Part shown: positions 4,675 to 31,535 of the stretch, one piece after another | Position numbering within the stretch: the stretch's first letter is position 1 | Layout of the letters: each line of letters begins with the position of its first letter | IMG/VR virus record: IMGVR_UViG_2639762957_000001 | Span: 1-64,000 of that record | DNA length: 64,000 nucleotides | Strand: one strand, 5' to 3' | Source of the DNA: a virus | Lineage: Duplodnaviria > Caudoviricetes | Program-made: the position numbers and the translations under genes | The notes under the pieces: generated by a model | Databases searched by the model: none | What the model was told of the DNA's origin: nothing | What the model saw: only the letters and a program-made list of their open reading frames with translations

Positions 4675-4784
4675 GCCTTCGGCATCTCCCCTTGAACCAC
4701 CATAGGGCTTGACGTCAAGTGAGGAGTCCGCAGGAAGCTCCTTGACGTCAAGCCCTATGGTGGTTATCCTTGCGCCGCGAAGGC
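4675..4784 (+). promoter_or_regulatory. Putative ssDNA (Frpo-like) promoter hairpin 1
   Basis: Long inverted repeat; 3' arm TTGACG(4742)-17-TATCCT(4765); 5' arm mismatched opposite -10; outer stem GCCTTCG/CGAAGGC. Confidence 0.7.
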
Positions 4785-4855
4785 AAAAGATTTCTGCTTT
4801 TTATTAAGGCTTTTTTCGCTGTCATAGGGAACGCTGGCTGCGTTCCCTGGTCATC

Positions 4856-5512
4856 TTAGATGTACCCTCTTTCGCAAAGGCTGACGTATGTTCCGTCTCC
4901 TATGATAATATGGTCAAGGATAGGGATTTCCATTATCTGCCCTTCATCGGCAATGCGCTGGGTTACGGCTATGTCCTCATGGCTTGGTTCAGGATTGCCC
5001 GACGGGTGGTTATGGGCAAGGATAATAGCGGCGGCATTGTAGCGCAGGGCGTATTTCAAAACGTCCCGGCCTTTGGCAATGCTGGCGTTAATAGAACCTT
5101 TGCTAAGGGTCTGCACAGCAATCAGCTGATTCTTTGTTGTAAGGTAGACGGCACGGAATTCTTCTTGCGATAAGAACCGCATGTCTTCCATGAGATACGA
5201 GGCAACATTTTCGGGACTGCTGAAATCGGGGGCATTGAGCTTCACTGACGATTGGCGGATACGTTTCCCCAGTTCGATGGCCGCACATAAGGCCAGGGCG
5301 CTCTTTTCCCCTACGCCGTAAATGGCTTCCAAATCCTGTACACACGTTTCCCCTAAATAATACAGGTTCTGCCGTGGCAGGGATTCCATGACCTTATCAG
5401 CCACTTCAACGGCCGTGCGGTCTTTGACCCGTTTACCGATGATAAGGGAAATCAGTTCGCTATCTGTCAAGGTGTTGCTTCCGTATGTCTTCATTTTTTC
5501 CTGTACCTTCAT
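4856..5512 (-). CDS. radC: RadC/JAB-domain protein
   Basis: ILAHNHPSGNPEPSHED and LDHIIIG motifs. Confidence 0.93.
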   Translation of the reverse strand: MKVQEKMKTYGSNTLTDSELISLIIGKRVKDRTAVEVADKVMESLPRQNLYYLGETCVQDLEAIYGVGEKSALALCAAIELGKRIRQSSVKLNAPDFSSPENVASYLMEDMRFLSQEEFRAVYLTTKNQLIAVQTLSKGSINASIAKGRDVLKYALRYNAAAIILAHNHPSGNPEPSHEDIAVTQRIADEGQIMEIPILDHIIIGDGTYVSLCERGYI

Positions 5513-5547
5513 GATGGACTCCTCCTCGAATGTGTTCCTGTTGTCCA

Positions 5548-5671
5548 GGCTACTCCTGGGATGTCCATCCCAAAACCGGTATGGCCGTCATCCGTCAAGC
5601 GAGGAGTCCCGCAGGGAAGCTCCTTGACGGATGACGATCATGCCGGTTATACTCTTGGCCACCAGGAGGCC
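5548..5671 (+). promoter_or_regulatory. Putative ssDNA promoter hairpin 2
   Basis: TTGACG(5624)-18-TATACT(5648) in 3' arm; conserved GAGGAGTCCC..GGGAAGCTCC loop. Confidence 0.7.
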
Positions 5672-5686
5672 GAGAGTTTTTGACTT

Positions 5687-5746
5687 TTTATTAAGGCTTA
5701 TTCGGACTTAATAAGCCCTAATAGGTCTTATTAAGTCTTCATAGAC
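5687..5746. repeat. Phased 10-bp repeat array (CYTAWTARG-N)
   Basis: TTTATTAAGG/CTTATTCGGA/CTTAATAAGC/CCTAATAGGT/CTTATTAAGT/CTTCATAGAC. Confidence 0.8.
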
Positions 5747-5797
5747 AAAAAAAGAACCACCGCAACAACCGGATGATTGTTGCAGTGGCTCTTGACC

Positions 5798-6052
5798 TCA
5801 TTCATAATGTGTCCAACATGACAGCAGTTTTATTTTTTGTTCATCAATATTCACATTATATACTAATCGATGTTGAATATTGATTCTCAAGGAATACCTG
5901 TTTTTCCATTTAGGTTCTAGTTTTTCAGCATGGTAAAAAGGATTTTCATATAAGCCATTAATGAGTTTCTTTAATTTTCTAACCATAGACGGATATTGTT
6001 TCAACTTCATGTAATCCTTTTGAAATTCTCGTGTATACTCAATTTTATACAT
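5798..6052 (-). CDS. Txe/YoeB-family toxin
   Basis: YSLRINIQHRLVY and CWTHYE motifs. Confidence 0.9.
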   Translation of the reverse strand: MYKIEYTREFQKDYMKLKQYPSMVRKLKKLINGLYENPFYHAEKLEPKWKNRYSLRINIQHRLVYNVNIDEQKIKLLSCWTHYE

Positions 6053-6302
6053 CTGGTATATCCTCTAAGGAAGTAAAAGGGATTCCTTCTTCTTTTTCCG
6101 CACGGTCTAATTTTTCCGCCATGCCAGGTACACCGTATACATGTAGCGTTTCCATTAAAGAATCATAATCGGCCTTGCCTAAAATGACTACATCATCAAG
6201 AGAATCTTTATTCGTAGCAATGACGGGAACACTGTCTTCATTGACTTCCTTGGCAATTTTAAAGAAATCTTTTCTTGCTTTTGTTTGGCTCATGATTTTC
6301 AT
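6045..6302 (-). CDS. Phd/YefM-family antitoxin
   Basis: TKARKDFFKI...DYDSLMETLH; overlaps toxin start. Confidence 0.9.
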   Translation of the reverse strand: MKIMSQTKARKDFFKIAKEVNEDSVPVIATNKDSLDDVVILGKADYDSLMETLHVYGVPGMAEKLDRAEKEEGIPFTSLEDIPDV

Positions 6303-6330
6303 GTTTATCCCCTCCTTAATTTATTTTATC

Positions 6331-6370
6331 ATCCGTGTACATGTACGTCAATAAGTACATGTACACGGAT
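6331..6370. promoter_or_regulatory. TA operator palindrome
   Basis: ATCCGTGTACATGTAC-N8-GTACATGTACACGGAT containing TGTACA cores typical of YefM-family operators. Confidence 0.7.
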
Positions 6371-6376
6371 GTGTTT

Positions 6377-6721
6377 TTAGGCATCTTTTTCTTTCTTTTC
6401 TTTCGGACGTTTCCGTTCACAGAATTCAAAATCTTCTAACAGAATACGCCAGTATTCATGCTTACTGCCTTCGGCATCAGTATAAGAAACGAAATCCATG
6501 TGACCGTCTACCTTGATTTTATCGCCTTTGCTGAAATGGTCTGCAATGACTTCCGCCTTCTTGCCGAAGGCCGTGACCATGAAGAACTGCGGTTCCTTTT
6601 CCTTGGTCTTGAAGTTATAGCGGTTCTCTGCAATCGTGAACAGCGCAATGGCTTTCTGATTTGATGTAAACCGAACTTCTACGTCTTTGACTAAATTACC
6701 CATTACATCAATGTGATTCAT
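6377..6721 (-). CDS. ssb: Single-stranded DNA-binding protein (short, no acidic DIPF tail)
   Basis: MGNLVKDVEVRFT...AFGKKAE..FSKGDKIKVDG OB-fold. Confidence 0.9.
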   Translation of the reverse strand: MNHIDVMGNLVKDVEVRFTSNQKAIALFTIAENRYNFKTKEKEPQFFMVTAFGKKAEVIADHFSKGDKIKVDGHMDFVSYTDAEGSKHEYWRILLEDFEFCERKRPKEKKEKDA

Positions 6722-6766
6722 ACGTCATCTCTCCTTTGCAGTCATAACTGTTTTCCCGAAGGATCT

Positions 6767-6880
6767 GCCTTCGGCATGTATCTCATAACCGCCATGGCAA
6801 TCTGCCGTCAAGCGAGGAGTCCCAGCGGGAAGCTCCTTGACGGCAGATGGTTATGGCGGTTATCCTTGTCATGCGAAGGC
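6767..6880 (+). promoter_or_regulatory. Putative ssDNA promoter hairpin 3 (upstream of ssb)
   Basis: TTGACG(6837)-18-TATCCT(6861); same loop and outer stem as hairpin 1. Confidence 0.7.
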
Positions 6881-6896
6881 TATGGCATTAGTTCTT

Positions 6897-6998: not shown

Positions 6999-7334
6999 TT
7001 ATTTCAAATGATATTCTCGCAGTAATTTTTCCTGATACTCATTATCCTGCAAGACACGGTCGACTTCTTCTTGCCGTCCTTCCTGCAATAGCTTTTGAAG
7101 CAGGATACTGAGAGCCTGTCTTCCTGTTTTATCCCCGCGTTCCTGACCAATCTTTTCGCCACGTTCCTGGCCAATCTTTTCACCACGTTCCTGCCCTGCT
7201 TTTTCCCGGCTGTAAAGGGCCGAAGCGATGTCGCGCATGGTACGTTCATGTTCCCAATAAGCTGATTTCAGCTTGTTATTCGTGGCAAACTGTTTTTCGT
7301 AATCCATAGCTTCCTTGATAGCTGTATCACTCAT
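6999..7334 (-). CDS. Putative intragenic small protein (RpnS-like antitoxin), in frame within rpn
   Basis: Internal AAGGAGG RBS 8-9 nt before in-frame ATG (MSDTAIKEAM...). Confidence 0.55.
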   Translation of the reverse strand: MSDTAIKEAMDYEKQFATNNKLKSAYWEHERTMRDIASALYSREKAGQERGEKIGQERGEKIGQERGDKTGRQALSILLQKLLQEGRQEEVDRVLQDNEYQEKLLREYHLK

Positions 7335-7934
7335 AGCTAAAGCCCTCCTTTCCTGGTCACTGAAATTAGGTGAGAAATAGGCAATCCATCGTTCTGAACG
7401 TTTCAGCTTCTTGATGTCGCTGATGTGGATTTTCTTGAGTTCGATGAAATGCATTTCCAAATGATTCGTCAAAATATCATGCGTATCATCATTCATGATA
7501 TGATACGTGTTAGCATACGTCTGGTATTGTGGGAACTGGTTGAAATCCAACAGATTGATGGTGATGACTGGACGAAGGTCTGCGTATAAATCGCCCTTTT
7601 CCAGCTCACGGCTGTATATACGTCCCCAGTAATACAAAGAACGATTGACCATGTATTCATCGAGGAGCACTTGTACTTCAACATGTACCCGTGTCCCATC
7701 ACCCATTTCTACCAGGACATCGAGGAAAGAACGTTTCCCATCAATCTGCGGCGGAACGATTTCCTTATCCGAAAAAGTGACCGATGTAAAAGCATTACTT
7801 CCTTCCCGGTTCAGAATAGCATTGATGAAATTCAAAGTCAGCGTCTTCCGCTCTTCTGAGCCTAACAAGGCTTTGAAGAATACATCGTTAAGGCGGTTCA
7901 AATGGATAATATCAGGAATATCAGACGTTGGCAT
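6999..7934 (-). CDS. Rpn-family (PD-(D/E)XK transposase-like) nuclease
   Basis: NDVFFKALLG, LDVLVEMGDGTRVHVEVQ, RSLYYW, HFIEL; C-terminal GQERGEKI repeats; start MPTSD after GGAGAGG. Confidence 0.9.
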   Translation of the reverse strand: MPTSDIPDIIHLNRLNDVFFKALLGSEERKTLTLNFINAILNREGSNAFTSVTFSDKEIVPPQIDGKRSFLDVLVEMGDGTRVHVEVQVLLDEYMVNRSLYYWGRIYSRELEKGDLYADLRPVITINLLDFNQFPQYQTYANTYHIMNDDTHDILTNHLEMHFIELKKIHISDIKKLKRSERWIAYFSPNFSDQERRALAMSDTAIKEAMDYEKQFATNNKLKSAYWEHERTMRDIASALYSREKAGQERGEKIGQERGEKIGQERGDKTGRQALSILLQKLLQEGRQEEVDRVLQDNEYQEKLLREYHLK

Positions 7935-8072
7935 AATAATCACCTCTCCATTAATTTTATCATTGGCCTGTTGCAACGTCAATCAAGACCATCCCGTAAA
8001 AGGACAAGAGTCCATTCTAACTATTACATTCATGATAATCACCCCCGTTTCTTATCATTTCTCAAAGGACCT

Positions 8073-8187
8073 GCCTTCGGCATCGATTTTCAAACGGCAA
8101 GAGGTGTCAGCCGTCAATGGCAGGAGTCCCATCGGGAAGCTCCTTGACGGCTGGCACTTCTTGCAGTTACCCTGGCCGTGCGAAGGC
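8073..8187 (+). promoter_or_regulatory. Putative ssDNA promoter hairpin 4 (upstream of rpn)
   Basis: TTGACG(8144)-18-TACCCT(8168); conserved loop and outer stem. Confidence 0.65.
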
Positions 8188-8201
8188 TGCCTTTTTTCCT
8201 T

Positions 8202-9737: not shown

Positions 9738-10343
9738 TCACCATATATCTATCGTAGCGGGATGGTCATAATCATAGTCGATATGATGGGCATATACGTA
9801 TACTTCGTGAGCCGGGAATTCAGCCTGTATCTGTTCATTCCATTGTTCCAGTTTCTTCAGCAAAGCGTCCGTATCCCTTTCATCCGTATTCAACAACCGT
9901 TGCAGGAACTGGCGGCCTTCTTTCTCTCCGGGGTATTCATTACATTCATCAACAAACTGTAATTCCGGTCTTCTTTTCAAGACATACGGTTCAATATAGG
10001 CGTCGATGCACCAGGCTTCGGTAACAAACGCTTTATGGATGTCGTTGGTCATATACAACCCTGTCCCCAATTCTTCGGCTGTGTAGATATAATGGATATC
10101 ATCATAAGCGGCTACGAGTTCATCCATATATTCATGGCATGGCTTCCACTTCGTTTCTACCTTGAACAGGAAATACTGCCCGGCAGGCTCATCGACTATC
10201 GCCCCGACATGGTCAACCAATATCTCCGTATCCTTATAATGGATAACGGCATGCCCAAGCTTGAGCTGTTCCCAAATCTGTGTCAGCCCTTCATAGTTCT
10301 TTTTCGTCAGAATCGCATAATAAGTCGTACACCAGTTAGCCAT
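9738..10343 (-). CDS. Hypothetical protein, YubB/DUF1281-like
   Basis: MANWC N-terminus plus ETKWKP and YTAEELG motifs; RBS AAAGGA. Confidence 0.6.
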   Translation of the reverse strand: MANWCTTYYAILTKKNYEGLTQIWEQLKLGHAVIHYKDTEILVDHVGAIVDEPAGQYFLFKVETKWKPCHEYMDELVAAYDDIHYIYTAEELGTGLYMTNDIHKAFVTEAWCIDAYIEPYVLKRRPELQFVDECNEYPGEKEGRQFLQRLLNTDERDTDALLKKLEQWNEQIQAEFPAHEVYVYAHHIDYDYDHPATIDIW

Positions 10344-10360
10344 TGAAATCATCCTTTCCC

Positions 10361-10459
10361 TTACATAGTAATCATGAAACCATAGACATAATCCAAAGCC
10401 TTCGTAATCGCATAATGGGATGCAACTACCGTGACCAGATGAGCGACGATGAAGTCCAT
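10361..10459 (-). CDS. Small hydrophobic peptide (32 aa)
   Basis: RBS AAGGAG; MDFIVAHLVTVVASHYAITKALDYVYGFMITM*. Confidence 0.5.
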   Translation of the reverse strand: MDFIVAHLVTVVASHYAITKALDYVYGFMITM

Positions 10460-10483
10460 GTGACCATCTCCTTCCAGCAAACT

Positions 10484-10594
10484 GCCTTCGATGGCTATAC
10501 CCAAACAGGGATGACGCTGATCGTCCAGGAGGAGTCCTGAAAGGAAGCTCCTTGATGGTCAGCGTCATCCCTGTTATCCTCTAAGCCCGAAGGC
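10484..10594 (+). promoter_or_regulatory. Putative ssDNA promoter hairpin 5
   Basis: TTGATG(10552)-17-TATCCT(10575); conserved loop and outer stem. Confidence 0.7.
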
Positions 10595-10661
10595 TTGCCA
10601 TCTTCGCTTTTTATTAAGGCTTTTTAGACGTAAAAAGAGAGCTGTTAAGCTCCCTTTTTGA

Positions 10662-12299
10662 TTACGCGGCTTCCATGTCAATATCTCTCGTCTGGCAGGA
10701 AAGGTTCGTCCGCTTTGAATAATCTGCACAGGCTCGGTTGATTCTGTCTGAGGTGCTGACCTGCTTATTGGCAAAAAGCTTGGCCTGTACGATTCTTTGC
10801 CGCTGGATTTCGAGAAGGGCCATGATATTGCCGTCATCATCGGTTACGACGACAAGCTGATTATATTGGTTCATCCGAGTGGCATAGGACAAAGCACAGT
10901 TCCGTAAGGCCATGGAAATCTTTTTCAGCTCGCTTTTCCGTTCGACGCAATGGAACTGGTAGCCGTCGACAGACTGATGCAATGCCTCGATAATCGTCTT
11001 ATCAATCGGGAAAACGACTTCATGTTCTTCCTGCTTGATAATCGCCACAGACAGCCAGTCATGGAGCTTTTGAAAAGGAACCTTTTCTTTTTCAAAAGCT
11101 TTCAGGGTAATCGCATCAGCCATTTTCCACATATGCAAGGTATCTTCATCCTCTTGGCTCCACGGCCGCCGGATAAAACAGCTTGCCTTGATATGCGGAT
11201 AGCGTGGATAGAAGGTATGGACAAAATCGCAGATTTTATCTATGATATAGCGGTCATCGGTATAGTCAGAATAACCGACATATTGCCCTTTTCGTATCCG
11301 TGCCAAATCGGAAAAGACAGGGAAAGCCAGATACGCTAAATCTGCGGTCGGCAAAGAGAAAGCTTTGACCAGTGGATAGAAGTCTTCATAATGCAGGTGC
11401 TTCCGTACAAATGGCGTGTTCGGAAGTTTCAGTGCTTCAATGAGGGCGGCGTCATAGGTCATTCCCTGTTTCATCCGTGCTTCCATATCACTTTCCCAGT
11501 TGTCCGGCAGTTCCTGGCTCTTCACAGCCTTTTTCAGCCAGTCATGGAACGACAAGTTCCCTTTACCACCATAAGGGACGAGGTCGGCATCCCAGAAACG
11601 CACTTTATGGGCCATGGCCAATACGCTGGCAAATACTTTCAGACGACGATTACTGGAAATGAACAGCCTTTTTTCCTGTAGTCCTATCCTTTTCATGTGG
11701 CGGTTGATAGTAGTACGCATCATCCGCAGTAGAGCCGTCAAAGAAGTCCCTCGCCGGACAATATGGTCAGCGGCGATATACCAAAGGGCCGTCCTTTCCC
11801 TCATCGTGTCAAAGGAACTGATGTATCCCAGCTTTTCTGTCTGGTGTACATTACTCTTGTTTTCATCATACGTCCAGTATACGTCATGGCTTTTCATATC
11901 AAAGACAAACCGTTCCTGCACCTTCTGATAGGCCGCATGATACCGTGCGGCATCAGCTTTGATGGCATCATAGGTCAGACGAAGTTCTAGCTTGTCCTTA
12001 AAATCGACAAGTGTGATACGCATAGCATAAGGCATAGGTTGTGTCTTATCATGATTAAACATGACGGCGTTCCCATGGTGATGATGGCCACATGCAGGGC
12101 AGTAGAATTCATCTTCGTTCAGCCGCCAGTTGAAGTAGGAAACGCTGTTGCATACCGCACAATACGCCTTGTATTCATGGTGTTCAGAATCGTAGGATAT
12201 AAAAGCCGTCGGCGTCCCCTGCTCTTTATAGTTTACGATTTGACTTCCGATAATCAATTCAGCAATCTTCTTCATCGTCGTCACCATCCAATCCGGCAA
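10662..12299 (-). CDS. PcfJ-domain protein with N-terminal Zn ribbon
   Basis: LHDWL...ELKKISMALRNCALSY...IVQAKLFAN; CAVC/CPAC. Confidence 0.75.
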   Translation of the reverse strand: MPDWMVTTMKKIAELIIGSQIVNYKEQGTPTAFISYDSEHHEYKAYCAVCNSVSYFNWRLNEDEFYCPACGHHHHGNAVMFNHDKTQPMPYAMRITLVDFKDKLELRLTYDAIKADAARYHAAYQKVQERFVFDMKSHDVYWTYDENKSNVHQTEKLGYISSFDTMRERTALWYIAADHIVRRGTSLTALLRMMRTTINRHMKRIGLQEKRLFISSNRRLKVFASVLAMAHKVRFWDADLVPYGGKGNLSFHDWLKKAVKSQELPDNWESDMEARMKQGMTYDAALIEALKLPNTPFVRKHLHYEDFYPLVKAFSLPTADLAYLAFPVFSDLARIRKGQYVGYSDYTDDRYIIDKICDFVHTFYPRYPHIKASCFIRRPWSQEDEDTLHMWKMADAITLKAFEKEKVPFQKLHDWLSVAIIKQEEHEVVFPIDKTIIEALHQSVDGYQFHCVERKSELKKISMALRNCALSYATRMNQYNQLVVVTDDDGNIMALLEIQRQRIVQAKLFANKQVSTSDRINRACADYSKRTNLSCQTRDIDMEAA

Positions 12300-12684
12300 A
12301 TAAGCTTCCTTCTTCGGTTTTAGCCTTCTTCAAATCATCTTCAATAGCTTTCTTCTGCGCTTCTTCTTTCTGTCTGGCCGTATTCTTGGCCCTTTCAGCT
12401 TCTTCGGCCTTCTGCTTGGCTTCTTTCTGCGCCTTTTCTTCTGCAAGCAAGGCTTCCTTGTGCTTGTTCAACAACAAGACGGCCATGTTCAAAGCCTTTT
12501 CCTGGGTATCACAGAACGCTTCAAGGAACCTCGTCTTTTCCGGTTCCTGAGAATGTTCCTTGTCGTAGGCAATCAAGTTACGAATGGCCTTGAGGAAATC
12601 CAGTTGCATAGAGAAAGTCTGTTCCATCATGGAAACATTGTTCATATCCGGCATACTATCCCATCCTTTCCAGAAGTCAGACAC
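12259..12684 (-). CDS. Hypothetical coiled-coil protein ending GSLF + acidic tail
   Basis: ORF track; first gene after hairpin 6, likely start MPDMN ~12654. Confidence 0.65.
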   Translation of the reverse strand: MSDFWKGWDSMPDMNNVSMMEQTFSMQLDFLKAIRNLIAYDKEHSQEPEKTRFLEAFCDTQEKALNMAVLLLNKHKEALLAEEKAQKEAKQKAEEAERAKNTARQKEEAQKKAIEDDLKKAKTEEGSLFAGLDGDDDEEDC

Positions 12685-12708
12685 CTAAGCCCTTTTGCTT
12701 CCGGCGCT

Positions 12709-15915: not shown

Positions 15916-15931
15916 TTCACTTCCCGATGCT

Positions 15932-23364: not shown

Positions 23365-23419
23365 GGCGTTTCTTCACATTTTATACATGACACAGGCAGC
23401 GGTATGTGGTATAATATAG

Positions 23420-24313
<894 letters not shown>

Positions 24314-24390
24314 CACCGCGGGTTATGTTGCGGTGAATCCGTATTGCATAGCTCGCTTATTGGGCAAGTAATATAATAACGGAGGGAATA

Positions 24391-25224: not shown

Positions 25225-25521
25225 ATTCAATTTCAAGGTGGCACTTAAAAATATTGGCGACAAAACTACCAAACCTGCGCGAAATGAACCTGAACTTAAT
25301 CTTTTCAATCCAAAAGATAATATCGATTCGTTTTTTATGCCTGATTTTTTTAGTTTTGTGTCCAATTTTTGTTGACAAGTGCAAGTGACTGCATCTTTGA
25401 TTGTATGAAGTGATGTATTAGTAATGGCAATAAGAGTGCTAATTGCTGATGATCACGCTCTATTGAGCCAATACGACCCGTTGAATTTGGCGGGTCGTTC
25501 AACAGATAGTAGGAGGTTATT

Positions 25522-26377
25522 ATGAAGAAATTTTGTTTTTTGTTTTTGATAATCTGTGGCTTGATGGTTTTCTGCCTTCAGGATTGTCAAGCGCGGCAGA
25601 AATTAAATCTTGCTGATCTGGAAAATAAATATAACGCCGTGATTGGTGTTTACGCCGTTGACATGGAGAATGGAAAAAAAATTTAGCTACAAACCTGATA
25701 CGCGTTTTTCCTACTGCTCGACACACAAAGTTTTTACGGCTGCAGAATTGCTAAGACAAAAAAATACCTCCGATTTGAATGAAATTCGTAAGTTTTCGGC
25801 GGAAGATATTTTGTCCTACGCGCCAATCACCAAAGACCATGTTGCTGATGGCATGACGCTGGCGGAAATTTGTTCGGCATCGCTCAGGTGGAGTGACAAC
25901 ACGGCGGCAAATTTAATTTTGCAGGAGATCGGCGGCGTGGAAAATTTCAAGGTGGCACTTAAAAATATTGGCGACAAAACTACCAAACCTGCGCGAAATG
26001 AACCTGAACTTAATCTTTTCAATCCAAAAGATAATCGTGATACTAGCACGCCGAGACAGATGGTAAAAAATTTGCAAGTCTATATATTCGGCGATATTTT
26101 GAGCGACGACAAGAAAAAACTGCTGATTGATTGGATGAGCGACAATTCCATAACCGACACGCTTATCAAGGCAGAAACTCCGCAAGGTTGGAAAGTTATC
26201 GACAAGAGCGGTTCAGGCGATTATGGGGCGCGGAATGATATTGCCGTGATTTATCCGCCCAATCGCAAACCCATTGTCATGGCGATAATGTCGCGCCGCA
26301 CGGAAAAAAATGCAAAATCTGACGACGCTATGATTGCGGAGGCGGCAAAACGAATTTTTGATAATTTAGTATTTTAA
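25522..26377 (+). pseudogene. aci1: ACI-1 beta-lactamase, copy 2, full length but with +1 insertion giving TAG at 25684
   Basis: ATTTAGCTAC vs ATTTGCTAC in copy 1; downstream STHK, SDN, EPELN, DKSG intact. Confidence 0.85.
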
Positions 26378-26520
26378 AGGGGCTTGATAGCATCGGTATT
26401 GCCGATGGGCAGAGAGGGCCATCACGCAAAAATATTTCGCCAAACATTTATATCTCACTCAAACTTCGCACACCTGAAACCCTTACTATTATATCATATT
26501 CCGATTTTCTTCATCAAAAA

Positions 26521-26575
26521 TACGGCAGAGAATCCTGCGTTTCCTCTTGGATTCTCTGCCGTAATCCTTTTTTCC
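26521..26575. terminator. Hairpin terminator
   Basis: TACGGCAGAGAATCC...GGATTCTCTGCCGTA plus T tract. Confidence 0.65.
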
Positions 26576-26578
26576 TGC

Positions 26579-26839
26579 TTATGCTCTGATTTCCGTCCCG
26601 TCCTTGAAGGTCACCCGGATATCGTCTTTGCTGTACACTGTGATGAAATCCACCAGGCTGCCCCACAGCCGGGCATCGAACTCCTTAATGAGATCCTGAT
26701 TCCTAAGCTCCTTGATGAAGCTGTCCATCTGACGGCTCCGGGCCTTGCGATACTGGATGGCTTCACAGGTCTTGTCGTACTGCGTCTTCGCTGCTTCATA
26801 CCGACTGACCAGTTCGTTGTAGTTCCGGTCATAATCATC
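26579..26839 (-). pseudogene. Large serine recombinase C-terminal fragment
   Basis: EFDARLWGSLVDFITVYSKDDIRVTFKDGTEI typical LSR tail. Confidence 0.7.
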
Positions 26840-27442
26840 AAGCGGCTTATCCTGGTCTTTTAAAGTACCATAGGTTCTAAGGTATTCATGAAGTTCCGAT
26901 GCATCTTTTAAAATCTGTTCTGTTGTCTTTTCAAAATCTGTTTCTTCTTCGAGAACGTATCGGGTATAGTATTCATGAATGTTTTGTGGCGAAAAAGAAA
27001 CGAATGACTCTAAGTCTGGTAACATTTTATAGCTTTCCCGATCATCAACCCACAAAGGAGTGATTTCATGATGCTTTTCATTTCCAGAAACACCAACAGC
27101 AAACACCTTCTTGAAGTTACTGCCCTGAGCAATACGTTTGGCATAGAAATAAGCCCCGTTGACAGCATAATCAGTAACGGCTTTTGTATCCATATCAATA
27201 ATTCCGTTTTCTGTCAATTTAATCTGTTTGCTAGTATCGGCTTTATCTTCGACGACTAAAACAAAATCATCAATAACAGCTACGTATTCAGGATACCCAG
27301 CATGTCCTGTACCTCTCTTAGATGCTGTTTTCAATGCCTCATCCAACTCTTTTACAGTAGAACCTTGAGCATCATATTTTATTTCATTCTCTTTAAGCAT
27401 TGATGCAACCCAGATATCCGTATTTACTTCTTTTTTACTCAT
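26840..27442 (-). pseudogene. BcgIA-like RM enzyme, 5' fragment (nuclease domain)
   Basis: ASKRGTGHAGYPEY..VEDKAD..YAVNGAYFYA..ASELHEYLRTYG..DKPL. Confidence 0.75.
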
Positions 27443-27743
27443 GCTTATTCCCCTCTCTATGCTTTTCAATATATTCAAGAGCAGCTAATCTTAAAAAGGC
27501 CGATAAAGATAATCCATAATTTCTGGCTTTTTCCATAAATAAATATTTTTCGCCTTTCGACAAGCTGATAGAAATAGCAGTTCTTTTTTCTTCTTTTTCC
27601 ATAATAGTCTCTCCGAATTTTTGTTCTATATAAATGTCATTTTACCAAAAATTAGTTAATTCTTCAATAATTTTCTAGCAAAGGAAGGAATATCGTGATA
27701 ACCAGCACTTTCATTTAGCAATCGCTAATTAGTTTTGTCAATG

Positions 27744-27787: not shown

Positions 27788-28285
27788 CTATTCAATCTTG
27801 AATTTTGAAATGCTGTGGATTCGTACCGGCTTCCGGTCATATTCTCCCAGCTCGACATTGCTGAAGGTGATGGTATGCGTTTCTTTCCGGCGTACATCGA
27901 CCAGGTCCTGTACAAAGGTCCGCTGTCCGATACGCATGATATGGGTCACGAGCGGGCAGGCCGTGATGGTCAGGACGGCACGATACATGATGAATTGCCG
28001 TTCTCCCGGATCAAGCTGCATCGAGGAAATCTGGATATGGCCATGGAAGCCGGCTTTCTTGAGGAGACGGGGTACATTGGCCTTGATGGCGGCTACGAGG
28101 TCGCCCTGTTCATGGTTCAGGATGTCGCTATACCGGTCCGTATCGGAACGATAGAACCATTGATGATCCGCATAAATATAGGCATCTTTCCGGTCCGGAT
28201 GTTTCTTCAGCCATTCCTGGCCTTTTTCAATCGTATAGACATTATGCAGCCAGTTGCGGCCATTCGTTACCAGTACATGTTTCAT
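27788..28285 (-). CDS. Hypothetical protein
   Basis: ORF with RBS GGGAG. Confidence 0.7.
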   Translation of the reverse strand: MKHVLVTNGRNWLHNVYTIEKGQEWLKKHPDRKDAYIYADHQWFYRSDTDRYSDILNHEQGDLVAAIKANVPRLLKKAGFHGHIQISSMQLDPGERQFIMYRAVLTITACPLVTHIMRIGQRTFVQDLVDVRRKETHTITFSNVELGEYDRKPVRIHSISKFKIE

Positions 28286-28437
28286 TTCCCATTCTCCCTT
28301 TCATTGATTCATCACATCGCTAAAATTCTATCAGTCTTTTCTCTTCCCGTCTATGGATAACCGCTCCGATTGTGCACAGTCTTGTGTAGTTCCCAGCAGA
28401 GGCAGGAACATCTCACATATAATCTCCTTTCTTATGC

Positions 28438-28950
28438 TCATCTCCATATCACGACATATAGAATCATCATGGCCATACTGTAAAGGCAGACGCCGGTATG
28501 CTCCTTTGCGGAATTGACCCGGAAAAATCGTTTTCCCCATCGCTTCCCTCTCATTTTGTAGTTCGGTACGGTCCCACATAACGCGTCTTCGACGATATGG
28601 AATATCCCTCCGGCTGCAACCAAGGCTATGATGACGGCAATATTAGGAAGCAGCTGGGCTTTGAACGGATTGTATAACAGCGTCGATGTCAGATAATGAA
28701 GGTTCCAGGATATAGGCCGGCCATACATGACAGCTCCGGCCAGGAGCAGGACGACCAGCCAGGGAACGAACCAATGACTCCACTGCCGGTGCTGCCGCTT
28801 ATATTCATAGTCCTTATTGAACTTCCACGGCGGCGTTTCCATCAGGTCAGGCAAGGTAGCCGCCGCAGCGGCTACGATACCATAGACCGGGTTCCCGGTG
28901 ATGACCATGACTGTAAGGCCCGTAACAATCTTATGATTAATCCATTTCAT
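28438..28950 (-). CDS. YdjM/DUF457-like membrane metal-dependent hydrolase
   Basis: H..LPD..HRQWSH..FHIVEDAL pattern, TM segments. Confidence 0.8.
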   Translation of the reverse strand: MKWINHKIVTGLTVMVITGNPVYGIVAAAAATLPDLMETPPWKFNKDYEYKRQHRQWSHWFVPWLVVLLLAGAVMYGRPISWNLHYLTSTLLYNPFKAQLLPNIAVIIALVAAGGIFHIVEDALCGTVPNYKMRGKRWGKRFFRVNSAKEHTGVCLYSMAMMILYVVIWR

Positions 28951-29257
28951 CGGTATCCCCTTCTTGTACGACGTCCAGCAAAATCCGATGTACTTTTTTC
29001 GGATCGGTTGGGTCCGTATCGATCAGATACGGAACGACACAATCTTTCTGCCAGTCCGTGAAGAGATGAGTGCAGAGATGGCCATTGGCCAATTTGACAG
29101 CAGGGCTTCCGAATTCTGTCTTGACTGGTTCAGCCCCTTCCGGAAGCTGCACCGTAATCTCATCCCAGTTATACGGATGCGTCTTCAAAGGCTGCAAGAA
29201 AAACGCTTCCTTATATCCGTATACCTGGTAACATTTATAAATCTTCATCGTATTCAT
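28937..29257 (-). CDS. Hypothetical protein
   Basis: Overlaps neighbours in operon. Confidence 0.65.
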   Translation of the reverse strand: MNTMKIYKCYQVYGYKEAFFLQPLKTHPYNWDEITVQLPEGAEPVKTEFGSPAVKLANGHLCTHLFTDWQKDCVVPYLIDTDPTDPKKVHRILLDVVQEGDTDEMD

Positions 29258-29699
29258 CTATATCTACCCTTTCTTCTTTATTTTGCTTATCCCAGGACTT
29301 CCGTTCCAGCCGGCAGGTCGCCTTTGGGTGTTCGTCCCGATGGTCGATCCACCAGGCAGCCTGAGTCTGCCCTGTATACCAGGCATAGAACTTTCGAGCC
29401 TTCTCTTGCACTTCTGGTGGAAGATTCGTAGCCAGGAAAATCTTTGCTTCTTCAATCCGTTTAGCGCGGATGACTACAGCCCAATCAATCTGTTTCTGAC
29501 TGCCCGTAAGCGTCGGCAGGTTCAGACCTGCCATTTCCTTGATAGCTATTTCGGTTCTCTTTTTGTTTTCATTGGCTTGACAGTTCGGACACAGGCAGTT
29601 CGTTTCCATCCACTTGATTTTCCGGTCACGGTCTGCGCTTTTGCCGTAGATTTGAATAACCCCTGCGTGACCACACGCATAAACAATGTCATATTTCAT
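29235..29699 (-). CDS. Hypothetical phage/ICE protein with Zn-binding N-terminus
   Basis: CGH...CPNC; LPTLTGSQKQIDWA..IR; AAWWIDHR. Confidence 0.75.
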   Translation of the reverse strand: MKYDIVYACGHAGVIQIYGKSADRDRKIKWMETNCLCPNCQANENKKRTEIAIKEMAGLNLPTLTGSQKQIDWAVVIRAKRIEEAKIFLATNLPPEVQEKARKFYAWYTGQTQAAWWIDHRDEHPKATCRLERKSWDKQNKEERVDIDEYDEDL

Positions 29700-29731
29700 A
29701 GTTTATCCCTCCTGTTATTACATTATGCAGG

Positions 29732-29790
29732 CTTAATAGTTCCTAATAGTGTCTAATAGGTCTTAATAATGCTTAATAGTGCTTATGATT
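29732..29790. repeat. Phased 10-bp repeat array (CYTAWTARG-N)
   Basis: CTTAATAGTT/CCTAATAGTG/TCTAATAGGT/CTTAATAATG/CTTAATAGTG. Confidence 0.8.
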
Positions 29791-30147
29791 TTCTCTATAT
29801 CTTGTAGCCGCTTCTAATGCTTTGACGTGGACTTTAGTATAATCGTCGATGATATTTCTGGCATCTTCTAAGTCATCGTCTGTGAAATAATCACGGGGAT
29901 CAAAACTGCCGGTCTTGTCTACACAGTAAAAAAACTTCAAAACGGTGGACATGACCTGGGCTGGATCTTTGACCATGGCTTCACTCTGTCCTAAAGCCGT
30001 CAGGGCCACTTTCCAGTTATCGTCCAGCTTATACCTCATTCGTTGATGTTGCTTTACGTCATAGGCGTAGATGTAGCGGTTCCCGATATAGAAAGTGCGG
30101 TTATCTGTACACACATTGAGTAAAATCTTCCAAGGAGCTTTCATCAT
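29773..30147 (-). CDS. Hypothetical protein
   Basis: ORF with RBS GAGG. Confidence 0.65.
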   Translation of the reverse strand: MMKAPWKILLNVCTDNRTFYIGNRYIYAYDVKQHQRMRYKLDDNWKVALTALGQSEAMVKDPAQVMSTVLKFFYCVDKTGSFDPRDYFTDDDLEDARNIIDDYTKVHVKALEAATRYRENHKHY

Positions 30148-30169
30148 TGCATACCTCTTCTCATAGAAA

Positions 30170-30240
30170 TCTATAGGGTCTAATAGGTCTTAATAGGAAC
30201 GAATAAGCCTTAATAAGTCCTATTAGACCCTATTAGTGTC
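30170..30240. repeat. Phased 10-bp repeat array (CYTAWTARG-N)
   Basis: TCTAATAGGT/CTTAATAGGA/ACGAATAAGC/CTTAATAAGT/CCTATTAGAC/CCTATTAGTG. Confidence 0.8.
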
Positions 30241-30246
30241 TTTTAA

Positions 30247-30645
30247 TCATTTTTTCAGTTCCCAAATTTGGGCGGCCTTTTTCCTGGCTTTAGCTTCTTC
30301 CCGGATAGTGGCTCGTTGAGTCTCTGTACAAGCGTACAGCGGGTCCTTGACATTCATGCGGTAACACCGCTGCGGAAGGCCAGTTCTACGGAGGCCTTTC
30401 CCTTCAAACGCAATGAAGTTCTGGAACGTTCCGTCTTCATAGTAGACCCGGCGGTAGTGGTGGAGCTTCCCGTCCTGGGTACACACGAGTTCCCGGATTG
30501 GTTTTTCCGGTTCTGTGTCTTCAAAGAGCCAGTCTAGACCCTGTAAGAAATCTTGTTTCGTAACTCCTGTATAGGCAGTCCATTCTTCAAATAATGCACA
30601 TCTCCCTCTGAGCACATACTTTTTCCATGTATCAACTTTTGCCAT
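30247..30645 (-). CDS. Hypothetical protein
   Basis: ORF with RBS AAGGAG/GGAGG. Confidence 0.7.
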   Translation of the reverse strand: MAKVDTWKKYVLRGRCALFEEWTAYTGVTKQDFLQGLDWLFEDTEPEKPIRELVCTQDGKLHHYRRVYYEDGTFQNFIAFEGKGLRRTGLPQRCYRMNVKDPLYACTETQRATIREEAKARKKAAQIWELKK

Positions 30646-30668
30646 CCTCCCATTCTCCTTTCTTTATT

Positions 30669-31364
30669 TTACTTAGCCTTGTTGGCTGCTACTGGCGGCC
30701 AGACACGGATTGTATCCGGCACTTCGGCCTGCTTCGGCTGCTTTTTGGATTTCGCCGACTGTATCTGTGTATTCACAGTCCGAGGAGCTTCAGCAGCTTC
30801 GCTTCCAGTATCATACGTTTCATCAGCGTCGTAATCAGCATAGCTGCCGTCGCCGAACTTGTCCCAGATGTCCTGGCGTATCCCTTCGACGGTGTCGACG
30901 TAGTTGATGGTTTCCTCATAGTTCGGGATACCGCCGGCTTCATCGACGGCACCAGGGCCTGCATTGTAGGCGGCTTCTGCGTAGATATAGGGGTCATCCC
31001 AGTCCCGGTAGCGCGACAACATCTGTCCCAGATAAGCGACGCCGCCATAGATGTTATCCTCCTCGTTGTACGGATTGACACCAAGACTGGCTGCCGTGTC
31101 CGGCATGAGCTGGGCAATGCCGATAGCTCCGGCACCGGATACAGCAGAGTTGTCGAAATGGCTTTCTGCTGTAAAAACGGCCGCTGCCAGGATGGGGTCG
31201 ACGTCGTACTCATAGGAAGCATCACAGATGTCCTGGGCAATGATGCCGGCTTCCGGTTCGCTGACATACTGACTGACCTGCTCATAGACCATTTCATCAG
31301 GCGAAGCCGCCTGTACGGTCGTTGTGGCTATAGCCAGCATCAGCAATATTCCTCGTTTCAACAA
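30669..31364 (-). CDS. Secreted lytic transglycosylase (SLT)
   Basis: Signal peptide; AESHF..GAIGIAQLMPDTA..AAYNAGPGAV..ETINYV. Confidence 0.92.
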   Translation of the reverse strand: MLKRGILLMLAIATTTVQAASPDEMVYEQVSQYVSEPEAGIIAQDICDASYEYDVDPILAAAVFTAESHFDNSAVSGAGAIGIAQLMPDTAASLGVNPYNEEDNIYGGVAYLGQMLSRYRDWDDPYIYAEAAYNAGPGAVDEAGGIPNYEETINYVDTVEGIRQDIWDKFGDGSYADYDADETYDTGSEAAEAPRTVNTQIQSAKSKKQPKQAEVPDTIRVWPPVAANKAK

Positions 31365-31414
31365 AGTATCATCTTCCTTTACATGAATCTATGGGGTCTT
31401 TCCTGTTTCCCCCT

Positions 31415-31535
31415 GCGCTTTCCGCTGCGTATAAAAAAGCATAGTGCCGGCCGCGGGCAAGGGCCAGCCGCAGGCGCAGCACTGTTTACCCTTGCCCGCG
31501 GCCGGCACTATGCTAAACTAACAAGGCGGAAGCGC
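31415..31535 (+). promoter_or_regulatory. Putative ssDNA promoter hairpin 7 (upstream of SLT operon)
   Basis: AGCATAGTGCCGGCCGCGGGCAAGGG / CCCTTGCCCGCGGCCGGCACTATGCT; TTGCCC-16-TAAACT; followed by TTTTATTAAGGCTT. Confidence 0.55.

What the first reader, a model, noticed from the sequence alone, without database searches (positions are those of the whole stretch)
4675..31535. Seven-member family of ssDNA-activated (Frpo-like) promoter hairpins drives a modular early programme
Seen: 110-125-nt inverted repeats at 4675, 5548, 6767, 8073, 10484, 12709 and 31415, each directly upstream of a minus-strand gene unit. Stem sequences differ between copies but stay self-complementary (covariation). The 3' arm always carries TTG(A/T/C)NN-16/18-TANNCT on the PLUS strand, the 5' arm is mismatched opposite the -10, and copies 1-5 share a GAGGAGTCC..GGAAGCTCC loop. 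In dsDNA the genes' own strand has the -35 but generally a poor -10. Folded plus-strand ssDNA would give a full promoter with a pre-melted -10 that transcribes leftwards into the genes. Known: this is the logic of F Frpo and IncI1 ssi leading-region promoters. Inference: the plus strand is the transferred strand, oriT lies to the left, and an unusually long (~27 kb with insertion) zygotic programme exists in a Negativicute ICE.
Basis: partly seen in the sequence, partly recalled or inferred. Interest (0 to 1): 0.85.

Follow-up and report, generated by a model that had tools for sequence, protein, structure and literature searches.

The report
Hairpin promoters for incoming single-stranded DNA
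Seven DNA hairpins in front of the establishment genes of a conjugative element from a pig-gut Megasphaera-like bacterium look like ready-opened promoters that can work only while the DNA is single-stranded, a device so far shown by experiment only in E. coli-type plasmids.

Summary
Exactly seven 116-125-nt hairpins lie at the stated places. They fold far better than shuffles and co-vary with 14 relatives from four other genomes.

Across 21 family members the stems vary. The 3' arm always keeps TTGnnn, 16-18 nt, then [T/C]AnnnT. The gene-sense strand has this pattern in 1 of 21. The helix ends at -12 and A-11 is unpaired in 19 of 21, so the hairpin resembles a pre-melted open promoter complex.

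The record is labelled a virus but is chimeric. Bases 1-44.6 kb are syntenic with conjugative elements of Megasphaera massiliensis and a relative. In those elements, type IV secretion genes and a MobA-like relaxase lie beyond the window's left end. Bases 45-85 kb are a separate prophage.

In 3 of 3 related elements with a recognisable nick-site motif, that motif is on the hairpin-promoter strand and 5' of the hairpins. This fits the plus strand being the transferred strand.

The hairpins are not sequence relatives of F Frpo. Single-strand dependence is untested. RNA contigs and three ordinary promoters show that some units are also expressed otherwise.

Earlier notes of this scan report similar candidates on other DNA. 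Verdict: a new variant of a known kind.

The parts
4672..4787 (+). Hairpin 1. -35 TTGACG at 4742-4747, 17-nt spacer, -10 TATCCT at 4765-4770. Cap type A.
   Evidence: (102.1 bits)
5551..5670 (+). Hairpin 2. -35 at 5624-5629, 18-nt spacer, -10 TATACT at 5648-5653. Cap type A.
   Evidence: (107.5 bits)
6764..6883 (+). Hairpin 3. -35 at 6837-6842, 18-nt spacer, -10 TATCCT at 6861-6866. Cap type A.
   Evidence: (114.9 bits)
8070..8190 (+). Hairpin 4. -35 at 8144-8149, 18-nt spacer, -10 TACCCT at 8168-8173. Cap type A.
   Evidence: (102.4 bits)
10481..10597 (+). Hairpin 5. -35 TTGATG at 10552-10557, 17-nt spacer, -10 TATCCT at 10575-10580. Cap type A.
   Evidence: (94 bits)
12706..12824 (+). Hairpin 6. 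-35 TTGTCA at 12779-12784, 17-nt spacer, -10 TAACCT at 12802-12807. Cap type B.
   Evidence: (73.4 bits)
31414..31536 (+). Hairpin 7. -35 TTGCCC at 31492-31497, 16-nt spacer, -10 TAAACT at 31514-31519. Cap type B.
   Evidence: (74.3 bits)
3902..4633 (-). Unit 1: a 148-aa protein of no known family (4187-4633) and a LysM protein (3902-4171).
4856..5512 (-). Unit 2: RadC-like JAB protein.
   Evidence: E 4e-45
5798..6721 (-). Unit 3: SSB (6377-6721), Phd/YefM antitoxin (6045-6302) and YoeB-like toxin (5798-6052).
6999..7982 (-). Unit 4: PD-(D/E)XK nuclease family (PDDEXK_2) protein.
   Evidence: E 3.7e-49
9738..10459 (-). Unit 5: protein of unknown family. It has one sub-threshold Pfam match (DUF1281_C, 17.9 bits against a cut-off of 22.8). 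The ATG at 10459 follows a ribosome-binding site.
10662..12654 (-). Unit 6: a small protein (12259-12654) and a PcfJ-like protein (10662-12299).
27788..31364 (-). Unit 7: SLT lytic transglycosylase (30669-31364), followed by seven small minus-strand ORFs (six sent to Pfam) down to 27788; one carries a YdjM domain.
12934..27478 (.). Variable cargo between hairpins 6 and 7, with no hairpin. It holds type I restriction-modification pieces, an insertion-sequence integrase, resistance-like genes and a pemK RNA. It is not shared with the Megasphaera element.
1..3844 (+). Left edge of the ICE part held in the window: an HTH gene (1-387, minus strand), topoisomerase (473-2665), a coiled-coil protein and a zinc-ribbon protein. 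In relatives, type IV secretion genes and the relaxase follow further left.
31566..44594 (.). Rest of the ICE part: a 928-aa protein, a primase-polymerase-like protein, ArdC, a replisome organiser, HTH proteins, a LemA/zinc-ribbon protein and a tyrosine integrase (43488-44594).

Best explanation
The seven hairpins are promoters that work on single-stranded DNA.

When the ICE is transferred by conjugation, the plus strand enters the recipient alone and each element folds back on itself. The folded parts then play these roles:
- The 25-28-bp upper stem is the upstream promoter duplex, with the -35 TTG at its top.
- The helix stops at -12.
- The internal loop presents the -10 (TAnnCT) unpaired, like an already melted transcription bubble.
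- The 7-8-bp lower stem is the short downstream duplex.

Host sigma-A/sigma-70 RNA polymerase would bind there, use the 5' arm and the DNA to its left as template, and transcribe leftwards into the minus-strand unit behind each hairpin. These units encode RadC, SSB with a toxin-antitoxin pair, a nuclease-family protein, a PcfJ-like protein and a cell-wall hydrolase. Complementary-strand synthesis removes the fold and so switches the promoter off.

Shown here: the structures, their covariation, the invariant promoter letters and their strand, the ICE context, and strand polarity relative to a candidate nick site in relatives.

Inferred: polymerase binding, the start site, ssDNA dependence, and the identity of the transferred strand in this very element.
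For: 1. All seven fold strongly, and no shuffle folds as well. Pairing is kept by compensatory changes.

2. In the 13-copy alignment the only invariant letters in the 3' arm are CCTTG and TA..CT.

3. Among 21 members from the window and four genomes, the pattern TTGnnn, 16-18 nt, [T/C]AnnnT is present in 21 of 21 on the plus-type strand. It is present in 1 of 21 on the gene-sense strand and in 75 of 2000 shuffles. The spacer is 16 nt in 6 members, 17 nt in 9 and 18 nt in 6.

4. The helix ends at -12. A-11 is unpaired in 19 of 21 minimum-energy folds and T-7 in 16 of 21. From established knowledge (recalled), this matches the upstream fork of an open complex.

5. The covariance model scores the 12 training copies from the window and Megasphaera at 71.7-114.9 bits on this strand. 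Where their reverse strands matched at all, they score 20-42 bits.

6. Each unit is insulated. The order is previous gene, terminator, hairpin, ribosome-binding site, gene.

7. Gene content is that of a conjugative leading or establishment region: SSB, RadC, toxin-antitoxin, PcfJ, ArdC and topoisomerase.

8. Window 1-44.6 kb is syntenic with ICEs that carry VirB4, two VirB6 copies, VirB9, VirB10, VirB11, a coupling protein and a MobA/MobL relaxase.

9. I examined 5 related loci. Three have a MobA-like relaxase with a TAAnTGCGC motif 115-150 nt upstream of it. This is the core of the MOBQ oriT consensus printed in PMC3832669 (passages). In 3 of those 3 the motif lies on the hairpin-promoter strand, and the hairpins lie 2.3, 2.3 and 27 kb 3' of it. 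Two of the three elements are close relatives of each other.

10. In plasmid F the leading-region genes likewise point towards oriT.
Against: 1. No experiment exists, and the left part of this ICE, with its oriT, is outside the record.

2. RNA-library contigs of relatives cover several units. In run X18, filed as a transcriptome of a single organism, contig depth is 2110 on the SSB/toxin-antitoxin unit against 5 on RadC, and one contig runs through hairpin 5. This suggests transcription outside conjugation and, at one unit, from upstream of the hairpin. Contigs show neither strand nor ends, and an RNA library may hold DNA.

3. Ordinary duplex promoters exist on the gene strand before hairpin 6 (12882-12855), before the nuclease-family gene (7982-7954) and before phd (6351-6323).

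4. In duplex DNA the same -35/-10 would fire rightwards, away from the genes. One RNA contig begins at 8182, close to where I reckon that rightward start to be.

5. Counts of G-T pairs do not separate the strands: 32 against 28.

6. In the G035 element the hairpins lie about 27 kb from the candidate nick, behind the secretion genes, so they are not literally the first DNA in.
Confidence: 0.68

Rival explanations
1. The hairpins act as RNA. Each unit is transcribed from a duplex promoter upstream of the hairpin. The long stem in the 5' untranslated region is then cut, for example by RNase III, or it stabilises the message, as in the early region of phage T7 (recalled).
For: The hairpins sit in the 5'-leader position. 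The 25-28-bp stems would be good double-strand RNase substrates. A conventional promoter precedes hairpin 6. One RNA contig spans hairpin 5, and most RNA contigs end at or in hairpins.
Against: The invariant letters are a -35/-10 pair on the antisense strand, not on the RNA strand. A conserved duplex promoter upstream of the hairpin is found for 1 of 7 units. Each hairpin is preceded closely by a terminator. The model's score is strongly strand-specific.
Confidence: 0.1
2. The elements are ordinary duplex promoters that fire rightwards, making short antisense or insulating transcripts. The complementary 5' arm then serves another purpose.
For: TTGACG, 17/18 nt, TATCCT is a fair duplex promoter (one search lists three of the hairpin promoters). 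Terminator-like stems with T-runs follow hairpins 2, 4 and 5 on the plus strand. One RNA contig starts at 8182.
Against: No gene or conserved product lies to the right. This reading does not explain 19 co-varying stem pairs, or a helix that ends exactly at -12 with the -10 held unpaired.
Confidence: 0.07
3. The hairpins are mainly priming sites for complementary-strand synthesis, that is, single-strand origins of the kind in rolling-circle plasmids (recalled). Polymerase would make a short primer rather than a message.
For: Frpo also primes DNA synthesis (PMC12672017 and the bioRxiv preprint 10.64898/2026.01.09.698686; passages). The architecture is the same.
Against: There are seven copies, each placed 40-60 nt before a ribosome-binding site and gene and after a terminator. 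One or two origins would suffice. This role does not exclude the promoter role.
Confidence: 0.07
4. The hairpins are recombination sites that shuffle gene cassettes, read as folded single strands like integron attC sites (recalled).
For: The layout is modular. Arms are variable but self-complementary. Related strains differ in sequence at boundaries near the hairpins, seen as loose ends at 4798, 10670, 10842, 12932 and 13041. Two tyrosine integrases lie in the record.
Against: The conserved letters and their spacing are those of a promoter. The region next to AAC/GTT is unpaired rather than paired as in attC. No integron-type integrase lies beside the array.
Confidence: 0.04
5. The promoter works on duplex DNA through cruciform extrusion under supercoiling, as with the early promoters of phage N4 (recalled), so it does not need transfer.
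For: The arms are near-perfect palindromes. Units are covered in libraries from bulk cultures.
Against: The 16-26-nt centres are GC-rich, which is unfavourable for extrusion (general knowledge, recalled). No virion or N4-type polymerase belongs to the ICE. The 2576-aa protein belongs to the neighbouring prophage and has no match in the PDB.
Confidence: 0.04

Closest known systems
Frpo1/Frpo2 (ssiD; class 1 ssDNA promoters, ssp1a/b) of plasmid F, and the ssi elements of ColIb-P9
   Same: A fold-back of the transferred strand forms -35 and -10 in a stem, with mismatches at the -10. Several copies occur per leading region, upstream of ssb, psiB and anti-restriction genes that point towards oriT (PMC11541004, PMC12672017 and PMC8708921, passages).
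   Different: There is no sequence relation. The model's best hit on 15.5 kb of the F leading region is 12.5 bits at E 0.12 with filters off, and blastn against 72,556 plasmids finds nothing. The F region before ssb, 479 nt when folded whole, forms one hairpin several hundred nt long, against about 115 nt here. The host is a Negativicute ICE with a MOBQ-type relaxase, not an enterobacterial MOBF plasmid. No experiment exists.
Class 2 and class 3 ssDNA promoters of pESBL and F (PMC12672017; ssp2 as a roadblock in bioRxiv 10.64898/2026.01.09.698686)
   Same: These are further, unrelated hairpin classes that drive leading-region operons. pESBL has six operons and F has four (passages). This shows that several sequence classes share one mechanism.
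   Different: I did not see their sequences, because figures and supplements are not held. So I made no direct comparison beyond the model search of the F leading region.
Frpo-like candidates in anti-defence islands (Samuel et al. 2024, PMC11541004)
   Same: That work predicts multiple ssDNA promoters per island, up to seven candidates in one metagenomic island, from hairpin shape and -35/-10 (passages).
   Different: Their sets derive from blast to five enterobacterial elements and to island candidates.
EGeRS1 and EGeRS2 regulatory repeats of pLS20-family plasmids (PMC8708921)
   Same: These are repeated regulatory modules in front of establishment genes in Firmicutes. EGeRS2 combines a promoter with operator sites (passages), which recalls the phased CTTAATAAG repeats here.
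   Different: The authors argue that EGeRS1 is not an ssDNA promoter. It contains no promoter, and the transferred strand of pLS20 is the non-template strand. Here the promoter letters are invariant and the polarity fits.
6S RNA and synthetic bubble or fork-junction templates (recalled)
   Same: A long hairpin with a central bubble that imitates an open promoter.
   Different: Those are RNA or artificial DNA. No Rfam family, 6S included, matches these hairpins.

Membership tests
Frpo/ssi class 1 ssDNA promoters (sequence family) | Sequence or profile similarity to the F and ColIb-P9 elements | tested here: not met
   Model R1 on F positions 52000-67500: best hit 12.5 bits, E 0.12. blastn against PLSDB: no match at E up to 1.
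ssDNA promoters (functional kind) | A stable fold-back of one strand that carries -35 and -10 on the 3' (non-template) arm at promoter spacing | tested here: met
   7 of 7 window copies and 21 of 21 family members carry it. The mirror strand carries it in 1 of 21 and shuffles in 75 of 2000.
ssDNA promoters (functional kind) | The -10 region is mismatched or unpaired in the fold | tested here: met
   A-11 is unpaired in 19 of 21 minimum-energy folds and T-7 in 16 of 21. The helix ends at -12.
ssDNA promoters (functional kind) | The element lies on the transferred strand, 3' of nic, upstream of genes for which that strand is the template | tested here: inconclusive
   Met in 3 of 3 related elements that have a candidate MOBQ nick motif. 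2 further loci had no relaxase in reach. The oriT of the window's own element is outside the record, and no nick has been mapped.
ssDNA promoters (functional kind) | Transcription starts on ssDNA and stops after conversion to duplex | not testable with these tools
   Only contigs of RNA libraries were on hand, and they show neither strand nor ends.
Conjugative leading or establishment region | Establishment and anti-defence genes lie in one orientation beside the transfer genes of a conjugative element | tested here: met
   SSB, RadC, Phd/YoeB, PcfJ, ArdC and topoisomerase are present. Synteny holds with ICEs that carry type IV secretion genes and a MobA-like relaxase.
Any Rfam RNA family | Score at or above the family's gathering threshold | tested here: not met
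   Only pemK at 22993-23090 passes. At the hairpins only chance-level microRNA hits appear.
Integron attC sites | Paired R''/R' boxes (RYYYAAC / GTTRRRY, recalled) at the hairpin base and an integron integrase nearby | tested here: not met
   AAC/GTT is present, but the flanking letters are unpaired and form the internal loop. No integron-type integrase was seen next to the array.

The most novel reading that the evidence does not exclude
The hairpins may belong to a compact, cross-phylum class of ready-opened DNA promoters that sense single-strandedness.

The same 33-nt cap (TCAAGGAG-GAGTCCC-nnn-GGGAAG-CTCCTTGA) tops long hairpins in several places:
- conjugative elements of Bacilli;
- a 1.48-kb IS256-like insertion sequence present in more than 20 copies in a Thiotrichales-like genome, where it lies about 130 nt upstream of the transposase gene on the opposite strand;
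- Planctomycetota and Dehalococcoidia.

In 20 of 35 distinct non-Negativicute copies, a [T/C]AnnnT follows the TTGA at 15-18 nt; the spacing is exactly 16 nt in 19 of the 20. The mirror strand shows this in 1 of 35.

If this reading is right, mobile DNA of many kinds, transposases included, uses one portable module to switch genes on only when its DNA is single-stranded, whether through entry by conjugation or transformation or through replication.
Probability: 0.25. Interest if true: 0.85.

Novelty: new variant of a known kind. Interest (0 to 1): 0.62.

Why it matters
Promoters active on single-stranded DNA explain how conjugative plasmids express anti-defence and establishment genes within seconds of entry. 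By experiment they are known only from IncF and IncI1 plasmids of enterobacteria (passages in PMC12672017 and PMC11541004).

This family has several useful properties:
- It gives a small, sharply defined version of about 115 nt.
- The comparative record singles out the letters that sigma factors read: TTG, A-11 and T-7.
- The helix-to-bubble junction falls where an open complex has it.
- The family sits in ICEs of gut Negativicutes that also carry resistance-like cargo.

The hairpins are short enough to synthesise and test directly. The covariance model can mark the transferred strand and the early genes of unannotated elements. It also flags conjugative DNA that virus predictors mislabel. That happened for this record and for one IMG/VR contig that encodes a coupling protein (L001).

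Tried and rejected
1. Phage reading. The record is a virus record with T7-like virion genes, so I considered N4-type hairpin promoters and T7-type RNase III sites. Synteny then showed that the hairpin region belongs to an ICE and that the phage genes are a separate tandem element. The 2576-aa protein has no PDB match.

2. Rfam. There is no family at gathering or E-value thresholds.

3. Group II intron. One distant copy (L033) lies 160 nt before a group-II-D1D4-3 hit. The IS-borne copies have no intron signal, so I treated L033 as an adjacent element.

4. A likeness of the cap to SRP RNA helix 8 (recalled) found no support in Rfam.

5. G-T wobble counts used to name the folding strand were inconclusive: 32 against 28 in the ICE family and 100 against 87 in the wider set.

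6. A recalled MOBQ nick motif, with up to 2 mismatches allowed, gave nothing convincing in the Megasphaera region or in the record. The Megasphaera relaxase ORF lacks the first 74 profile positions.

7. RNA contigs. Holes in cover and contig depths cannot rank genes, so I use them only as weak hints.

8. Look-ups of earlier findings by sequence and by place returned nothing.

9. Searches of the 'phages' collection with two window stretches found no match. The window's own record may be left out of that collection.

10. The overall count of promoter-like sites in 3800-13000 is not above shuffles: 19 against 16.2 +/- 4.0. The argument therefore rests on position and conservation, not on enrichment.

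11. By eye, 6 of 21 caps close with a C-GNA-G triloop, which I recall as unusually stable in DNA. This is too weak to use.

Full report
**Observation**

Arms are 25-28 nt long and 88-100% complementary, with 16-26 nt between them. They are 7 of the 15 long inverted repeats of the window.

As single-stranded DNA each copy folds at -35.9 to -49.4 kcal/mol, with z -6.3 to -9.4. None of 200 shuffles per copy folds as well.

Two searches find no eighth copy. One is a sliding fold over the whole 87,645-base record. The other is a covariance model built from 13 copies. The model's next-best hit in the window scores 20 bits.

**Anatomy**

From the base upwards, each element has these parts:
- a lower stem of 7-8 bp, mostly CTGCCTTCG with CGAAGGCA;
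- an internal loop of about 12 nt on each side;
- an upper stem of 25-28 bp;
- a small capped tip.

Copies 1-5 share cap A (GGAG-GAGTCC(C)-nnn-(G)GGAAG-CTCC). Copies 6 and 7 share a second cap, B, which recurs in relatives.

On the 3' arm the -35 hexamer sits at the top of the upper stem. The -10 hexamer starts at the last base pair of that stem and runs into the loop.

On the gene (minus) strand the order is the same for each unit: previous gene, intrinsic terminator, a cluster of CTTAATAAG-like repeats, hairpin, ribosome-binding site, start codon.

**Family and conservation**

The Megasphaera massiliensis NP3 element has five copies in syntenic places. A model search of 39 genomes of that family found hits in 4 of them. 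This gave 21 distinct full-length plus-type members.

Pairing is kept while the sequence changes:
- 22 of 27 pairs show compensatory changes among 13 copies.
- On the 24-row alignment, 95.3% of cells pair, against 62.3% in shuffles (0 of 500 reach the observed value) and at most 47.5% when the partner is slid.
- On the same alignment, 23 of 27 pairs have double changes. The alignment was fitted to the model, and three rows are reverse-strand or truncated hits.

Against this variable background, the invariant letters of the 3' arm are CCTTG and TA..CT.

All 21 members carry TTGnnn, 16-18 nt, [T/C]AnnnT. The spacer is 16 nt in 6, 17 nt in 9 and 18 nt in 6. The gene-sense strand carries the pattern in 1 of 21 and mononucleotide shuffles in 75 of 2000.

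The helix ends at -12. A-11 is unpaired in 19 of 21 minimum-energy folds and T-7 in 16 of 21.

TTG, A-11 and T-7 are the letters that sigma-70-type factors read most strictly. A duplex-to-single-strand junction at -12/-11 is that of an open complex. Both statements rest on established knowledge that I recalled.

The model scores the 12 training copies from the window and Megasphaera at 71.7-114.9 bits. Where their reverse strands matched at all, they score 20-42 bits.

**Context**

The record is a virus record of 87,645 bases whose ends fall exactly on gene borders. It is chimeric.

Bases 45-70 kb encode phage functions:
- tail tubular proteins;
- T7 gp14-like and other internal virion proteins;
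- a portal protein and a large terminase subunit;
- a GH25 lysin;
- a 2576-aa polyvalent protein.

A second integrase lies at 83758-84873.

None of these has a homologue in the 80 kb I fetched from M. massiliensis. In contrast, window 1-44,594 is collinear with that genome gene by gene, from the integrase to the topoisomerase.

Beyond the topoisomerase, which is beyond the window's left end, the Megasphaera element carries transfer genes:
- two VirB6/TrbL proteins;
- an SLT/M23 hydrolase;
- a YadA/SLH adhesin;
- VirB4, VirB11, VirB10 and VirB9;
- a VirD4-type coupling protein;
- a MobA/MobL relaxase.

A third species (G035) has the same order in the same orientation as the window:
- relaxase on the minus strand;
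- secretion genes and topoisomerase on the plus strand;
- hairpin-led PD-(D/E)XK, RadC and SSB units on the minus strand;
- then the 928-aa protein, a primase-polymerase-like protein, a replisome organiser and ArdC.

The hairpin-led genes of the window are typical establishment genes: RadC, SSB with Phd/YoeB, a PD-(D/E)XK family protein, a PcfJ-like protein and an SLT hydrolase.

**Polarity**

The G035 relaxase matches the R1162/RSF1010 MobA fragment 2NS6 at E 6e-13.

The motif TAAnTGCGC is the core of the MOBQ oriT consensus NWACCNNTAAGTGCGCCCTYNN printed in PMC3832669 (passages). Its occurrences:
- G035: twice in 120 kb. One copy is in the 380-bp gap just upstream of the relaxase gene, on the plus strand, with an inverted repeat 5' of it.
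- G019:C22: once in 60 kb.
- G026:C6: once in 30 kb.

In G019:C22 and G026:C6 the motif again lies about 120 nt upstream of a MobA-like relaxase gene.

In all three elements the motif is on the same strand as the hairpin promoters. The hairpins lie 3' of it, at 27 kb, 2.3 kb and 2.3 kb.

Two further loci had no relaxase within the stretch fetched. The G019 and G026 elements are close relatives, so these are two independent lineages rather than three.

The relaxase stays on the 5' side of the nick and that strand leaves 5' first (established knowledge, recalled). So the hairpin-promoter strand would be the transferred strand, and it is the template of the hairpin-led genes. Plasmid F shows the same orientation rule: ssb, psiB and their neighbours point towards oriT.

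**Relation to what is known**

Single-strand promoters are established for F and IncI1 plasmids. F has four operons and pESBL has six, and there are three sequence classes. Reported properties include start sites mapped in transconjugants, loss of activity on duplex, priming of the complementary strand, and a roadblock role for ssp2. I saw these as passages in PMC12672017, the bioRxiv preprint 10.64898/2026.01.09.698686, and PMC11541004.

PMC11541004 also predicts Frpo-like candidates widely, up to seven in one island (passages).

The present family is not a sequence relative of these:
- The model finds nothing in 15.5 kb of the F leading region (best hit 12.5 bits).
- blastn against PLSDB finds nothing.
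- The 479-nt F region before ssb folds into one hairpin several hundred nt long, against about 115 nt here.

Two full-text searches found no paper that links ssDNA promoters with ICEs or Negativicutes. Supplementary tables are closed, so a listing there cannot be excluded.

Earlier notes of this scan describe similar candidates on other DNA. I could not match them to this sequence.

**Complications**

- Contigs from four RNA libraries of related strains cover the units, and most break at or in the hairpins.
- In run X18, filed as a transcriptome of a single organism, contig depth is 2110 on the SSB/toxin-antitoxin unit, 899 on the nuclease-family unit and about 5 on units 1 and 2.
- In the same run one contig spans hairpin 5, and another begins at 8182, close to where I reckon the duplex form of promoter 4 would start rightwards.
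- Contigs give no strand, no ends and no reliable level, and DNA can be present in such libraries.
- Even so, the contigs argue that some units are also expressed outside conjugation. This could come from ordinary promoters, found at 12882-12855, 7982-7954 and 6351-6323 on the gene strand. It could also come from single-stranded replication intermediates of the ICE.
- The rightward duplex activity of the -35/-10 is unexplained. Short terminator-like stems with T-runs and the phased CTTAATAAG repeats lie in its path.

**Wider family**

Cap A, exact over 20 specified letters, occurs in several other settings:
- Two IMG/VR contigs. One of them (L001) encodes a coupling protein; no match was found in the other (L002).
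- A Bacilli metagenome-assembled genome contig with four copies and a coupling protein.
- Unexpectedly, hairpins of Thiotrichales-like Gammaproteobacteria, Planctomycetota and Dehalococcoidia.

In one gammaproteobacterial chromosome the hairpin lies inside a 1481-bp IS256-like element with more than 20 copies. It sits about 130 nt upstream of the transposase gene on the opposite strand, which is the same geometry as in the ICE.

Among 35 distinct non-Negativicute copies, 20 have [T/C]AnnnT at 15-18 nt from TTGA, and in 19 of the 20 the spacing is 16 nt. The mirror strand has it in 1 of 35. In these copies, however, A-11 is unpaired in only 6 of the 20. The Bacilli and most Planctomycetota copies lack the pattern. 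Many of the 20 are copies of one IS. This is a lead, not a result.

**Verdict**

It works like Frpo but is not a member of the Frpo sequence family. Confidence is 0.68. The decisive tests are biochemical and simple.

Noticed in passing
window 2658-2726, 4800-4808, 5687-5735, 6897-6945, 8202-8240, 9620-9658, 10610-10618, 30189-30217, 31552-31560: CTTAATAAG-like 9-mers occur 40 times, against 14.0 +/- 3.7 expected. They form clusters phased by exactly 10 or 20 bp, next to the right side of hairpins 1-5 and 7 and at three other intergenic sites. They look like operators or iterons for a DNA-binding protein, and they lie in the path of rightward transcription from the duplex form of the promoters. 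The motif is also present in the Megasphaera element.
   Followed up: partly
window 12934-27478: The cargo between hairpins 6 and 7 holds a type I restriction-modification S subunit and an M fragment, DUF4268, an MFS transporter and an insertion-sequence integrase. It also holds one truncated and one near-full-length class A beta-lactamase-like ORF, a radical SAM protein, a sigma-70 region 4 protein, a serine recombinase and an RlmA-like rRNA methyltransferase. An Rfam pemK RNA lies at 22993-23090. I describe these only.
   Followed up: partly
window 45014-64000 and G000 64001-84873: A separate podophage-like prophage lies in tandem with the ICE. It has a GH25 lysin, a Tad2-like anti-Thoeris domain protein (46130-46579), a tail fibre, a 2576-aa LPD3 polyvalent protein, internal virion proteins, tail tubular A/B, a portal protein, a large terminase, ParB, a PAPS reductase-like protein and its own integrase. 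That integrase is 50% identical to the Megasphaera homologue of the ICE integrase. The virus record is therefore chimeric.
   Followed up: partly
G000 85154-85882 (-) and 86453-87645: An ORF resembles the C-terminal part of the Megasphaera ICE relaxase (54% identity over 243 aa), followed by IS3-like transposase genes. This may be the edge of a second, broken conjugative element to the right of the prophage.
   Followed up: no
L013:3932-5412 and more than 20 other loci of OY820613.1: A 1481-bp IS256-like insertion sequence carries the cap-A hairpin within about 120 nt of its end, upstream of the transposase gene on the opposite strand. In L011 an IS5-like transposase gene lies about 100 nt to the right of the hairpin.
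   Followed up: partly
L033:2700-3084: A cap-A hairpin lies 160 nt upstream of a group-II-D1D4-3 intron hit (82.9 bits). No domain V/VI hit was reported in the 8-kb locus.
   Followed up: no
L064:4671-6476 (Megasphaera massiliensis NP3): The relaxase ORF starts at profile position 75 of MobA_MobL and abuts the VirB9 gene. Compared with G035, the gap that holds the candidate oriT and a 252-aa gene is missing, so this copy of the ICE may be transfer-defective.
   Followed up: no
window 16309-16438 and 16849-16978: Two strong GC-rich hairpin clusters (-45.7 and -49.6 kcal/mol) lie in the cargo region. The second contains TTGAC repeats. The covariance model gives a weak hit at 16671-16792 on the minus strand (20 bits).
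   Followed up: no
window 6330-6371: A perfect 17-bp palindrome overlaps the promoter-like site before phd (6351-6323). It is probably the autoregulation operator of the Phd/YoeB pair.
   Followed up: no
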